A stretch of DNA of 64,000 nucleotides from the human T2T-CHM13v2.0 reference genome, Homo sapiens. The position numbers and the translations under genes were made by a program. The stretch is taken from NCBI RefSeq assembly GCF_009914755.1, contig NC_060927.1. One strand, given 5' to 3'. This document shows, in pieces, positions 22,580 to 34,123 of the stretch; the first letter of the stretch is position 1, and every line of letters begins with the position of its first letter. Below the pieces are notes generated by a model, which did not search any database, was not told the DNA's origin, and was given only the letters and a program-made list of their open reading frames with translations.

Positions 22580-22771
22580 CTGAGCATAAAAGGCTTTAGA
22601 ATGGTTGTTCCGAGCAAGAAGAACATTAGGACTGAGAAGCCCATCATGGCAAACCCCAGCATCACGGCTCGGTCCTCTCCAGCACTGGATGGCAGCCTCT
22701 TGTGCACACCTAGTGGGTCTCCATCACTGTAGTCTGTCTCTCTCTTCTTCCCTGAGGCAGGAAAGGCTGTC
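22580..22771 (-). CDS. KCNMB3: KCNMB3 shared exon 2, 192 bp (TAFPASGKKRETDYSDGDPLGVHKRL...TM1...KPFMLS)
   Basis: AG acceptor 22772-22773, GTaag donor 22578-22579; ORF 22576..22833; TM1 hydrophobic stretch. Confidence 0.97.
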
Positions 22772-25719: not shown

Positions 25720-29045
<3,326 letters not shown>

Positions 29046-29552
29046 TACATATAGATGGTCCCCCAACTTAAGATGGTTCCACTTGCAATTTTTTTTACAA
29101 CTATAAAATGTTTTTATTTCAATTACATAATAACACTTATGTTTTCCTCAAATTTTAATGAGGATTTGGTCTTTTTGCATTCAATTCTATCTTGTAACAG
29201 TAATATGAATCTACATAATTTCATAAAATGTCAACATTCATAAGGTACATTCCTTTGTGATTTTATATTTTACAATTAAATCTAACTTTACAATTATTTT
29301 TAAATGTTTCTTTATATAGAAAACAGATATTTTCTTCAGGCAGATCAAAACAAGAATTTTCCAATAAGAATATACTGGGACATAACAAATGAAAACATTT
29401 ATAACAAAATACCAAAAGTGATTCAGCTCTTTAAAATATCCTACTCCAGTCTAATTTGTAGTTTGCACAAGAACAAGTAACCTTTTTTTACTGTTCTTTT
29501 GAATGATGATTAGAAATTCAAACAAAGAGAAGTAATTTTAAGGTTCAAAAAC

Positions 29553-30038
<486 letters not shown>

Positions 30039-30778
30039 TGACTGTCCCTGCTCAAATACTGCAGTAGGAAATGTAATTTGACATGTATCACTTCCAGAAA
30101 AAATCTTTAAACTTTGTATAAAATGAATTTGATACATCATCAGCATGAAGTTAAAATCTCCTACAAAGTAAATTCAAGTATCATCAACAATGAGATCCAA
30201 AAGCATTGGTTCAAAATCAAAGACTTATATGAGGTGAAGGCAAATAAAGCCCCTCATGCTTTCAGACCTTTACTTGTTATCCTTAAAATGATTATTGTTC
30301 TAAGGTGCAAATCTTTTCAGTGACCTATTTGCTATTTGGCGGTTTATCTCCTTTAAATAAAATACCATACAGGTTATAATGTATATTTTAAAATCAAATA
30401 TGAAAGTACACATATATGAACAAGACATTAATTTAAATATCAATTATATTCATAATACAGAAGTCTAAGAATGCTATTTGGTCATTTCAATTAGATGCTG
30501 ATATATTTGGTCAAGAATATTCACATTCCTATCAGCCTAAGGCAAATGGTAAATGCTTCTATTTTTATTAAGTGGACTATAAACAGTAGACATTATTGTT
30601 TGATACTACTGGATATATGCTCTCAATTAGAATGTACACTGATAACAAATATGTCTTTCTAATCTGGGTGATAACCTCAATGATTACATGGAAATCTACA
30701 AGTAACAGTCTATAACTTAAAGCAGTAGATCACCTGGTGATTGGCATACAGTGCATCTCTATGAATTTAGAACATTCT

Positions 30779-30786
30779 ACTTACAT
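30779..30786 (-). other. KCNMB3: KCNMB3 beta3b first-exon splice donor (CCAAT|GTAAGT); supplies the 'AT' of the start codon
   Basis: Perfect GTAAGT; AT+G(ACA GCC TTT) gives MTAF..., 2+192+199+381=774 nt = 257 aa, matching recalled beta3b; the exon 5' boundary cannot be determined. Confidence 0.75.
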
Positions 30787-32989
30787 TGGCAGTGGAGAGA
30801 AAAGAGCCCCTCACACTCAGACTTCCTGTGCACCACGCCTGCCGCCTGCCTCAGCTTAGGACATGGTACGGTCTTCTTTGCTTTTGCCCTTCTCGTTCCC
30901 TCCTCTGGTATCTTCTCTGCTTTCTGGATTGAAGTCCCCCGGCTCTCCTCCTGGTGCCAACAAGTCATGGTTTTTTAGGCTATTGCTGTCTAAAGCTTTC
31001 CTGATGGTCTGACTTGGATGTTCTGACATCCCACACCTCTCTGTACTTTCTGCTTCACAGGCATCACTAATGTCCTGTGAGGGACTTTCATTTTTGGGTA
31101 CGGTGCAGTGATCTGCATCTTCGCTCTCTGGTTCTTCAGGATTGCTTTAAGTGGCACCAGCTATTTTAGCATTATCTTTTGCAACACCTTCATCTAATTC
31201 TTCACCACCAGCCCTCGGGCCTGATGATTGAACTGTGACATCCTCAAAATCTAATGTGTCTCTACCAGCTAGTACCTCCTCAGCTGCTGTTTTTACATCA
31301 TTGCCTTCTTGGTCAAGTTTTCCATCCAACTTCATTTTAGGATTCTCTGGACAATCAACATTTTCACTGCTTTCTGCTGCAATTTTCTGTTTTGGATTTT
31401 CAGTCACCTCGTTTTGGGCTTCCACTGCTGACTTTCTGTCAGTAGACTTTACCTGCTCTTCTTCCTTAATTTCACTTAAATCTGTGTTCTGATAAGTTAA
31501 CTCTTTTTAAACATCTTTAAGGGTTTCTATGGGTACTGGGGATTTTTTCCTCTTCTTTTTCTTTTTCTTGTTCTTTCTCTTCTGCAATGAGTCCAATGCC
31601 TCTCCCTGTTGGTCATTCTTTTCTTCATCTGGCTCTTTCATATCTGAGGGTTCACTTTGAGTGTCTACTGTACTTGGACCTGTCGCCTCCTGACCCTTGC
31701 TCTCAGTTCCTGCTGGAGAACCAGGAACTTCTGTCTTGATTGGTTTCTCATCCCTTAATCCTTTTTCTTCACCCTCTTCTTCGTTGTGATCCCTACCTGC
31801 TTCTGTACTCTGCACTGGAACCTCCTTGGGCTCAGCTGCTTCCTGGTTGGTGAATTCTTTCTCTAAACTATGCCCTATGCTTGTCTCTAACTGTTGGGGG
31901 ACCTCTACCATACATCTGTCATCATGATAAACTGTGTCATCACTATGCCCTAAAGGACATGAGGCCACTGTGTCTGCCTGCTCTCCAACCTGAGTCACCG
32001 CTGCCTCTCCCACATTCTCTGTGTGGCTCCCACCATCTAAGTCACTCCAACAGTTGGATGGCTCAAGGGGAGTTCTGGTCCTGTCATCTGGTGCACCCAT
32101 GACCTCATTTGACTCAACCTGTGCTGTGTTTTCAGGGAGAGAAGCGCTCTCAAGAATTTGGCTTTGAACCTGTTCCTCATAGGTAGCACCTGCTAAGGTT
32201 CCTAGGAATGGGGCAGTGTCTTCAGAGGATTTCTGGTCCTCGGTATTCTCACCAGCAGTGAATACCTCTATGTCCACACAATCCTTCACTGTGTCCTCTG
32301 TGTGTTGTTCTTTCTCAGTATTGTGCAAGATTTCTCTTTTCCCCACATTCGCCACGATTTCATTCTTCACCTCCACCTCACTGGCTTTCCTAGGGTCCCA
32401 TCCCCTGTCGACTTGAGGGCATTTAACTCTTCTTTCGTCATCTTGGTAGGATCTTGGTATCAAACATTACTGAGAGTGTCGGAAGTCTCTCCATTGGTAA
32501 CTATTTCTGAATTTAGGATTATTCCATGTTTCTCGAGCATTTCCTCTGTTTGCTTCAGGGCCTCCTTGACTTCAGCAAACTGAAACTGCAGTATACTGTG
32601 GGCGTGTTTTTCCCTTTCAAATTATTTGTTTTTCTCTTCGTACTGCCGCCTATATTCAGCCAGCTGTTCTTCAATCTCCAGCAACATATCTTTCAGGGTG
32701 TCAACTTGGTAAATGAAGTTTGTGTTTTCATTGTCTAACTGAGCATTGGAAAACATAGCCTTCTTACATTTCTCTTCAACTTCTGCTAGAGAGTCCTTGA
32801 TTTCCCTGATGGACGCCTCGGTGTCGATGGATATAGAGGTGTCTCCGCTGCCTCTCTGAGAGGAAGTCCCACCCAGAAAGGCCAGCGTGGCTGCAGACGG
32901 GCCCAGCATGTTACGAGACCCCTTCTCAGTAAAATATTTTTCTGGTCTCTCTTCTACCTCCTTCTGCTGCCGCTCCAGCTCCTTCATGG

Positions 32990-33420
32990 GGATCTCACGA
33001 GCCTCCGCGCGGGCCTCCCGTTTTGCGGCGAGCCGGGCCTCCGCCAGCCTCTGCGCTTCCGCGCTCAAACAGTAGATCTCCCGGCTCTGCGTGGCCGCGG
33101 GGCTGGTCAACCTGCTGGGCTCGGCCCGCTCCACCCGGCGGGAAACGCTCGGGGACCGTGCCGGAGCCCCCCCCCGCGGGCCGGGCCAGGGGGCGCGCGC
33201 TCTGTCCGCGGAGACGGAGCCACTCGCCGCGAAGTGAACGCTCGCGCTTCCGGGGCCAAGAGCCAGCCCGCCGGGGAGCGGCTCGCGGGACTGGGCTCGG
33301 GCGCAGCCGGCAGGGGCGGGGCGTAGGTGGCCGCGGGCTGAGCCTGGCCGGGGGTGGAATGGCGCGGGGGAAGCGGGGCTCGGGCGCCTCCGCCCGCCCC
33401 ATGGCCCGCCCCGCCCCACA
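32990..33420. promoter_or_regulatory. CpG island with GC boxes at the 5' end of the retrocopy
   Basis: Very high GC and CpG density; GGGGCGGGGC ~33313 and CCCGCCCC motifs ~33393-33417. Confidence 0.8.
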
Positions 33421-34123
33421 CTTGCAATTTTTTTACATTACTATGGTGTGAAAGCAATATGAATTCAGTAGAAACTGTACCTCAAATTTTGAATTTGCAT
33501 TATTTCCTGGGCTAGCGATATGCAGTACCCTACTCTCTTGAGATGCTGGGCAGTGGCAGCCAGCCATAGTTCCCAGTCTGCCACACAATCATGAGGGTAA
33601 ATAGCTAATACTCTGAAGTTTTCAACTTACAGTATTTTCCACTTATGATGGATTTGTCAGGATGTAATCCCACTGTAAATGGAGAACTATCTATATGCAT
33701 GTTTTTACAAAAGATACATCTAAAACACAGATACAAAAAGGGTGAAATTTATAGGCAAAATGTAACAAAAAGCAAACATGAATGTTAAAAATTAAAAAGC
33801 TTTATTAGAAATTTAAAAATAAGTGTTTTAACACTGATTAAAGGCTCAATTCACACGGAAAATGTAACAATGCTAATTTGTAGGTACCTGATAGCATTGT
33901 TTCACTGATTAAACTACAAGAAGAAATAGACAAAATCCACTATCAGATTATGATGTATTTTTATACACTCCCCCAGTAATTTAGATAGCTTGACCTGAAC
34001 AAACCAGTAGGGTAATAGATTTAAGTAAAGCAATTAACAAGTTTTATCTAAATGATAAATATAGAATACTCACTTCTACAGAATATATATTATTCTCAAG
34101 CATGTATGGAACATTTATGAAAC

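What the first reader, a model, noticed from the sequence alone, without database searches (positions are those of the whole stretch)
30779..30858. KCNMB3 beta3b start codon is assembled across a splice junction from a pseudogene 3' UTR
Seen: ~70 nt past the retrocopy's native stop (30856-30858), on the KCNMB3 strand, lies CCAAT|GTAAGT. Joining it to the exon 2 acceptor (AG|G ACA GCC TTT) gives AT+G = ATG, in frame, MTAFPASGKK..., 257 aa. Known (recalled): human beta3b starts MTAFPASG and confers fast BK inactivation. Inference: this channel isoform exists only because an LRRFIP1 mRNA retroposed into the intron and a latent donor in its 3' UTR was exapted. It should therefore be limited to lineages carrying the insertion. 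The isoform is annotated, and its retrocopy origin may already have been noted.
Basis: partly seen in the sequence, partly recalled or inferred. Interest (0 to 1): 0.8.

Follow-up and report, generated by a model that had tools for sequence, protein, structure and literature searches.

The report
Pseudogene supplies KCNMB3 beta3b first exon
The first exon of the human BK-channel beta3b subunit, including two of the three letters of its start codon, is a piece of a dead retroposed copy of the LRRFIP1 gene, which explains why this known fast-inactivating isoform has been found only in primates.

Summary
On the minus strand the sequence reads CCAAT|GTAAGT, with the exon ending at 30785. Exon 2 starts at 22771 behind an AG. 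Joining them gives AT+G, an ATG that opens a 257-codon frame. The RefSeq rows supplied with the finding list exons 30785-31728 and 22580-22771.

- The stretch 29096-33418 is a processed LRRFIP1 pseudogene. It is colinear with eight chr2 exons spread over about 74 kb and flanked by a perfect 16-nt target-site duplication. It ends at the parent's poly(A) site, and its reading frame is broken.
- All of exon 1b lies inside it.
- The parental 3' UTR carries the same donor, identical over 49 nt around it, so the donor came ready-made.

Zeng et al. 2008 (PMC2442174) already reported that exon 1b codes one methionine. They found homologues only in chimp and rhesus, with the GTAAGT donor. The paper does not mention LRRFIP1 or retroposition, and seven paper searches found no statement of the link.

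Retrocopy-derived first exons are a known class. This is a well-supported new member, of moderate interest.

Not tested here: primate distribution, the true transcription start, and translation in vivo. The 942-nt leader holds 18 upstream ATGs.

The parts
29096..33418 (-). LRRFIP1P1 processed pseudogene (retrocopy), 4323 nt, same strand as KCNMB3, inside the intron between exon 1a and exon 2
   Evidence: It is colinear with 8 chr2 exons (G000:C2:238182146..238255912), and all 7 parental junctions have canonical AG...GT. There are 197 substitutions in 4301 aligned bases, K2P 0.047. The start codon is now TTG. Four parental codons are now stops, and there is a 1-nt and a 3-nt deletion.
33419..33434 (.). 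Target-site duplication, upstream copy (relative to the minus strand)
   Evidence: Perfect 16-nt direct repeat CACTTGCAATTTTTTT (+ strand), family D3.
29080..29095 (.). Target-site duplication, downstream copy, directly behind the retrocopy's A run
30785..31728 (-). KCNMB3 exon 1b (944 nt), the first exon of the beta3b transcript. It is made of decayed LRRFIP1 coding sequence plus the first 71 nt of the LRRFIP1 3' UTR.
   Evidence: RefSeq exon row in the hub table. It lies wholly inside the insert. It differs from the parent at 49 substitutions in 944 nt. Its 5' end is not behind an AG, so it is a transcript start and not an acceptor.
30785..30786 (-). AT, the first two bases of the beta3b start codon, from the retrocopy's 3' UTR
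30779..30784 (-). Splice donor GTAAGT (intron side), with exon side AAT
   Evidence: Identical in the parental 3' UTR. Zeng 2008 reports GTAAGT at this exon in human, chimp and rhesus.
30856..30858 (-). Native LRRFIP1 stop codon TAA in the retrocopy
22580..22771 (-). KCNMB3 shared exon 2. Its first base G (22771) completes the ATG, and it encodes the N-terminal blocking peptide of beta3b.
   Evidence: hub table. Single copy in this genome.
33044..33418 (-). CpG-island fragment carried in from LRRFIP1 exon 1. It may be a promoter or regulatory piece; this was not tested.
   Evidence: GC 0.79, CpG observed/expected 0.91. 46 of 56 parental CpGs are kept, against 16 of 38 in the last-exon part. 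It overlaps the RefSeq 'silencer 33022-33451' of the hub table.
29113..29118 (-). AATAAA poly(A) signal of the retrocopy, in sense to KCNMB3
   Evidence: The parent has the same signal, and its genomic sequence departs from the retrocopy right at the A run.

Best explanation
An LRRFIP1 mRNA of eight exons was copied by the L1 machinery into the KCNMB3 intron between exon 1a and exon 2, in the sense orientation. The LRRFIP1 frame decayed. The copy now serves as KCNMB3 exon 1b. A transcript with annotated 5' end 31728 runs 944 nt through dead LRRFIP1 coding sequence and 71 nt of its 3' UTR. It then meets AAT|GTAAGT, a strong donor already present in the parental UTR. It is spliced over 8,013 nt to the shared exon 2 acceptor. 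The retrocopy's AT plus the G of exon 2 make the ATG. The protein is one methionine followed by the exon 2 peptide, and that bare N-terminus gives the fast, trypsin-removable BK inactivation, with Phe4 important to it. Shown here: the sequence, the retrocopy anatomy, the identity of the donor in the parent, and the open frame. Taken from annotation or print: the exon borders, the cloned cDNA, the channel function, and presence in chimp and rhesus. Inferred: that the insertion created the isoform, its date (roughly 25-45 million years, from my own recalled primate rates), which promoter drives it, and that the protein is made in tissues.
For:: donor, acceptor, junction ATG, 257 codons, in-frame TGA 27 nt upstream. 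The hub table gives exons 30785-31728 and 22580-22771; perfect 16-nt duplication at 29080-29095 and 33419-33434; the insert matches 8 chr2 exons in order, at 91.7-97.8% identity, and each parental piece is bounded by AG/GT; the copy ends 17 nt after the shared AATAAA, where the parent's genomic sequence goes on differently; the donor and 49 nt around it are identical to the parent; start codon lost, 4 stops, 1 frameshift, and 72 nonsynonymous against 29 synonymous codon differences, so it is a dead copy; only two places in the genome match 30500-31100, this one and chr2; exon 2 is single copy. PMC2442174 (abstract and sections 9, 13, 15, 16, 24 read): exon 1b gives one Met; it was found only in chimp and rhesus, with GTAAGT; human beta3b inactivates fast; F4L weakens the block.
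Against: I saw no junction read, cDNA sequence or long read. The link 30785>22771 rests on RefSeq exon borders without connectivity and on the description in the 2008 paper. The annotated leader is a poor one for translation: 18 upstream ATGs in 942 nt, one of them opening a 61-codon frame that ends on the start codon itself, and a C at -3 and an A at +4 around the ATG. The annotated 5' end may be a truncated clone. The donor motif alone occurs at chance frequency. No primate genome was available, and marmoset was not in the 18-species placental set named in section 9, the set the PhastCons scores were made on. 'Catarrhine only' is therefore not shown. The dating is loose: K2P 0.047 fits any time from the ape/Old World monkey split back to about the New World monkey split, depending on how constrained the parent is.
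Confidence: 0.9

Rival explanations
1. The origin is as described, but the beta3b message is mostly a by-product of transcription from a retrocopy. Little or no beta3b protein is made in tissues, and the isoform has no selected role.
For:: 18 upstream ATGs, an overlapping 61-codon upstream frame with a good context (ACCATGA), and a weak context at the real ATG; the 49 nt around the donor show no change, but the parent keeps them too, so this does not show selection on the copy. The parts of Zeng 2008 that I read cite only Northern blots for tissue distribution. My inference: an exon 1b probe would be about 95% identical to LRRFIP1 mRNA (49 differences in 944 nt) and could cross-hybridise. I did not see which probe was used.
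Against: According to Zeng 2008, the cDNA was cloned (Uebele 2000; that paper is not in the library). The donor is kept in chimp and rhesus. The upstream frame stops exactly on the ATG (ATGA), an arrangement that can allow re-initiation; that point is my own knowledge. Shorter leaders from a start nearer the donor are not excluded.
Confidence: 0.25
2. Exon 1b does not start at 31728. Transcripts start further up, at the CpG-island fragment carried in by the retrocopy (33044-33418) or beyond, so the retrocopy supplied the promoter as well as the exon.
For:: the fragment is still a CpG island (observed/expected 0.91). It keeps 46 of 56 parental CpGs against 16 of 38 elsewhere in the copy (Fisher p 1.2e-4), which suggests long-term lack of germline methylation. 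RefSeq marks 33022-33451 as a functional element; 31728 is not behind an AG, so it is a transcript 5' end, possibly an incomplete one.
Against: RefSeq gives 31728, which is 1.3 kb downstream of the island. RefSeq labels the element a silencer, not a promoter. Dense CpG sequence can stay unmethylated without promoter activity (general knowledge). I saw no CAGE or expression data.
Confidence: 0.2
3. The donor arose in the copy after insertion, and its identity with the parent reflects gene conversion or parallel change. On this reading the donor was not latent in the LRRFIP1 mRNA.
For: None from my calls. It is only formally possible, because I could not see outgroup LRRFIP1 sequences.
Against:: 49 nt around the site are identical, with ordinary scattered differences on both sides (30806, 30810, 30818; 30755, 30744). 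The two loci lie on different chromosomes.
Confidence: 0.02

Closest known systems
Retrocopy-derived alternative first exons of host genes, for example the CSMD3 short variant whose first two exons come from retro_hsap_4001 (Kubiak et al. 2020, PMC7290577, section 3.3.4 read). Baertsch et al. 2008 is cited there for 15 coding exons derived from nested retrocopies.
   Same: A retrocopy nested in an intron supplies a new first exon, a new transcript start and a new N-terminus to the host protein. Kubiak et al. count 71 transcripts using sequence of 56 retrocopies, of which 18 contribute to coding sequence.
   Different: Here the retrocopy gives only two bases of coding sequence, from its 3' UTR, and it lies in sense orientation. 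In 47 of their cases the retrocopy was used from the opposite strand. The functional gain is that an existing exon 2 peptide becomes a free N-terminus, not that new residues are added. KCNMB3 did not occur in the held part of their supplement. That file was cut when stored, and LRRFIP1P1 appears in it only as the known pseudogene retro_hsap_2887.
Human KCNMB3 beta3b and exon 1b as described by Zeng, Xia and Lingle 2008 (PMC2442174)
   Same: It is the same exon. It contributes a single methionine, has a GTAAGT donor, lies between exon 1a and exon 2, and was found only in primates. The beta3b protein gives fast incomplete inactivation.
   Different: The paper treats the exon as sequence of unknown origin. 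The words LRRFIP, GCF2 and retro do not occur in it, and 'pseudogene' occurs once, in a remark about alignment filters. This report supplies the origin, the insertion borders and the state of the parent.
Mouse and rat beta3b' (exon 1b') from the same paper
   Same: An upstream non-coding exon gives one methionine joined to exon 2.
   Different: It is unrelated sequence that lies upstream of exon 1a, and the subunit does not inactivate. It shows that the same protein design can arise from a different exon.

Membership tests
Processed pseudogene (L1-mediated retrocopy) | Intronless and colinear with the spliced exons of a parent gene elsewhere | tested here: met
   Eight chr2 pieces spread over about 74 kb match 4.3 kb here in order, and every parental border is AG...GT.
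Processed pseudogene (L1-mediated retrocopy) | Target-site duplication flanking the insert | tested here: met
   A perfect 16-nt repeat, 4339 nt apart, at exactly the ends of the homology.
Processed pseudogene (L1-mediated retrocopy) | Ends at the parent's poly(A) site with an A tail | tested here: met
   AATAAA is shared, and the homology stops 17 nt later where the copy has an A run and the parent has GCAAGCC. The tail is very short and merges with the A7 of the duplication, so its length cannot be given.
Processed pseudogene (L1-mediated retrocopy) | Disabled reading frame | tested here: met
   ATG changed to TTG, 4 stop codons, a 1-nt deletion, and a nonsynonymous:synonymous count of 72:29.
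Retrocopy-derived exon of a host gene (exaptation) | An annotated host exon lies within the retrocopy on the host strand | tested here: met
   Exon 30785-31728 (hub table) lies inside 29096-33418, and both are on the minus strand.
Retrocopy-derived exon of a host gene (exaptation) | Transcript evidence that the exon is spliced to host exons | not testable with these tools
   No reads or cDNA records could be fetched. This rests on the RefSeq borders and on Zeng 2008 and the work it cites.
Retrocopy-derived exon of a host gene (exaptation) | The exon is absent from lineages without the insert | not testable with these tools
   No primate genomes are held. Zeng 2008 found it in chimp and rhesus only. 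Marmoset is not in the 18-species placental set named in section 9.
KCNMB3 beta3b isoform | A start methionine supplied by exon 1b and joined to shared exon 2, with an open frame through exons 3 and 4 | tested here: met
   One search gives 257 aa. Zeng 2008, Figure 1 legend and section 13.
KCNMB3 beta3b isoform | Fast, trypsin-sensitive inactivation of BK current | not testable with these tools
   From print only.

The most novel reading that the evidence does not exclude
The LRRFIP1 retrocopy arrived as a complete cassette. It carried a CpG-island fragment that has stayed unmethylated and acts as the promoter, a transcript start, and a ready-made donor placed so that AT|G opens exon 2. On this reading a single insertion in the catarrhine stem created a new fast-inactivating BK channel subunit in one step. 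The sense-oriented poly(A) signal of the copy may also have lowered output of the ancestral beta3a form.
Probability: 0.2. Interest if true: 0.65.

Novelty: new member of a known kind. Interest (0 to 1): 0.45.

Why it matters
Beta3b is one of the best-studied inactivating BK auxiliary subunits, and its absence from rodents has limited work on its role. Its first exon turns out to be a dated, bounded retroposition event, which explains mechanistically why it has been seen only in primates. It also tells where to look in other primate genomes: a filled or an empty site at the 16-nt target. It warns that exon 1b probes and primers are about 95% identical to the LRRFIP1 message. Finally, it is a clean textbook case of a functional protein change in which the inserted DNA adds no new residues beyond the start signal.

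Tried and rejected
- Motif statistics. ATGTRAGT occurs at chance frequency in the window (5 against 4.62 expected), so I dropped motif counts as an argument.
- A second genomic source for beta3b. Exon 2 is single copy, and the exon 1b region matches only itself and chr2.
- Exon 1b as an internal exon. There is no AG before 31728.
- Precise dating. My first thought, that K2P 0.047 pins the event to the catarrhine stem, did not survive. It depends on unknown constraint on the parent and on rates I only recall, so I give 25-45 million years.
- Literature. None of the search listings I saw links the exon to the retrocopy. These were KCNMB3+LRRFIP1 (3 papers, unrelated by title and abstract), LRRFIP1P1 (1 unrelated) and KCNMB3+retrocopy (0). 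A six-term search listed 20 of 979 papers, none of them holding KCNMB3. A phrase search returned only Zeng 2008. KCNMB3+retrotranspos gave 4 unrelated papers and KCNMB3+pseudogene+first exon gave 0.
- Uebele et al. 2000 is not in the library, so anything about its probes and clones is second-hand.
- Supplements. The Kubiak 2020 file was cut when stored. Either could list this case.

Full report
**1. The observation**

- On the minus strand the window reads ...CTCTCCACTGCCAAT|GTAAGTAGAATG. The T is at 30785 and the GT at 30784-30783.
- The TAA at 30858-30856 closes a frame whose translation matches the end of the parental LRRFIP1 frame apart from single-residue changes. The donor therefore lies 71 nt into what was the 3' UTR.
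- The exon 2 acceptor reads ...TTTCCCCAAAG|GACAGCC, with the G at 22771.
- Joining the annotated exons in a script puts ATG across the junction and gives a 257-codon frame. An in-frame TGA 27 nt upstream (30813) means the frame cannot begin earlier.
- The motif is not itself remarkable. ATGTRAGT occurs 5 times in the window against 4.62 expected. Only one of those lies on the minus strand between exon 1a and exon 2, and it is this one.

**2. What the surrounding DNA is**

- A search of the window's own assembly with 30500-31100 found just two places: the window itself and chr2 at 95% identity.
- The whole stretch 28900-33600 matched chr2 in two large pieces: the last 3.3 kb and the first 375 nt. 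The part between them matched six further small chr2 pieces in order.
- A local BLAST and global alignments give eight colinear segments at 91.7-97.8% identity. Trimmed to the nearest splice signals, every parental segment is bounded by AG and GT. The eight exons span about 74 kb on chr2 and 4.3 kb here.
- The homology ends are flanked by a perfect 16-nt direct repeat at 29080-29095 and 33419-33434.
- The copy ends 17 nt after an AATAAA shared with the parent. There the copy has an A run, and the parental genomic sequence continues differently.
- The parental concatenation has a 752-codon frame. In the copy the start codon is TTG, four codons are stops, and there is a 1-nt and a 3-nt deletion. 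Codon differences are 72 nonsynonymous to 29 synonymous.
- This is a classical dead processed pseudogene, as RefSeq's name LRRFIP1P1 says. It lies on the same strand as KCNMB3.
- The Alu-like repeat inside its 3' UTR part (about 30026-29736, many genomic copies) falls inside the stretch that is colinear with the parent. It was therefore in the parental message before retroposition.

**3. The donor was ready-made**

- The alignment of 30650-30950 with chr2 shows the identical CCACTGCCAATGTAAGTAGAATG in the parental 3' UTR.
- The list of differences has none between 30805 and 30756. Ordinary scattered changes lie on either side.
- On the exon side the donor reads AAT and on the intron side GTAAGT. 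By the usual MAG|GTRAGT consensus (my own knowledge), that matches 8 of 9 positions.
- In the parent the site sits in a terminal exon. I could not check whether LRRFIP1 ever uses it.

**4. How it most likely works**

- A transcript with annotated 5' end 31728 starts inside the dead LRRFIP1 coding region. That position is not behind an AG, so it is a start and not an acceptor.
- It is spliced at 30785 over 8,013 nt to exon 2.
- The protein is a methionine followed by exon 2 sequence.
- Zeng, Xia and Lingle 2008 (PMC2442174; abstract and sections 9, 13, 15, 16, 24 read) state that exon 1b encodes only that methionine. They report that human beta3b gives rapid incomplete inactivation removed by trypsin, and that F4L weakens the block.
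- The retrocopy thus adds no residues of its own. It unmasks the exon 2 peptide as a free N-terminus.

**5. Distribution and age**

- The same paper found the 200 bp upstream of the 1b frame only in chimp and rhesus, both with GTAAGT, and in no other mammal aligned.
- The placental set named in section 9, on which the PhastCons scores were made, holds bushbaby and tree shrew but not marmoset. New World monkeys are therefore open.
- Copy and parent differ at 197 of 4301 aligned bases (K2P 0.047; 136 of 4016 outside CpG).
- With recalled primate rates and an unknown degree of constraint on the parent, this fits roughly 25-45 million years. That is at or before the ape/Old World monkey split, as presence in rhesus requires. 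I could not narrow it, and no primate genome is held by these tools.

**6. Points against a simple story**

- The annotated 942-nt leader has 18 upstream ATGs. The last long upstream frame (ATG at 30968, context ACCATGA, 61 codons) ends in a TGA that overlaps the real ATG across the junction. The real ATG has C at -3 and A at +4.
- Either the working messages start much nearer the donor, or translation depends on re-initiation, or little protein is made.
- I saw no expression, junction or protein data.
- Exon 1b differs from the LRRFIP1 message at only 49 of 944 bases, so older hybridisation data for "beta3b-specific" probes deserve a second look. I could not read Uebele et al. 2000 to see what was used.

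**7. A side observation**

- The first 375 nt of the copy, from LRRFIP1 exon 1, are still a CpG island (GC 0.79, observed/expected 0.91). They keep 46 of 56 parental CpGs, against 16 of 38 in the last-exon part (Fisher p 1.2e-4).
- The fragment coincides with the RefSeq element 33022-33451.
- This suggests the fragment has stayed unmethylated in the germline and may be regulatory. Whether it drives exon 1b is untested.

**8. Comparison with what is known, and novelty**

- Retrocopies that give first exons to host genes are a described class. Kubiak et al. 2020 (PMC7290577, section 3.3.4) count 71 transcripts using 56 retrocopies, 18 of which touch coding sequence, with CSMD3 as their example.
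- The isoform, its single-methionine exon and its restriction to primates are in print, and both features are annotated.
- What I did not find in print is the statement that exon 1b is LRRFIP1P1 and that the donor was latent in the parental UTR. Zeng 2008 holds none of the words LRRFIP, GCF2 or retro.
- The searches gave nothing relevant.
- I file this as a new member of a known kind. The reading is well supported and of moderate interest.

Noticed in passing
window 33044-33418 (-): The retrocopy's 5' end, from LRRFIP1 exon 1, is still a CpG island (GC 0.79, CpG observed/expected 0.91). It keeps 46 of 56 parental CpGs against 16 of 38 in the last-exon part. It coincides with the RefSeq 'silencer 33022-33451'.
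   Followed up: partly
window 30968 to the 30785|22771 junction (-): In the spliced beta3b message a 61-codon upstream frame (ATG 30968, context ACCATGA) ends in a TGA that overlaps the junction ATG (A-T|G-A). In all there are 18 upstream ATGs in the 942-nt leader.
   Followed up: partly
window 29113-29118 (-): The retrocopy keeps its AATAAA in sense to KCNMB3, inside the intron that beta3a pre-mRNA must cross. It could cause premature polyadenylation of transcripts from exon 1a. This was not tested.
   Followed up: no
window 22708-22710 (-): Codon 22 of the beta3b frame is GGT (Gly) in this assembly. I recall Asp at this place in the reference protein. That is recall only and was not checked against any record.
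   Followed up: no
window 29736-30026 and 29553-29697: Alu-like repeats lie inside the retrocopy's 3' UTR part, with thousands of first-look candidates genome-wide. They fall within the stretch colinear with the parent, so they were already in the LRRFIP1 3' UTR when the message was copied.
   Followed up: partly
L021 (G000:C3:37085008-37085151): A 75% match to the coiled-coil exon of the retrocopy on chr3. From recall it is probably the paralogue LRRFIP2.
   Followed up: no
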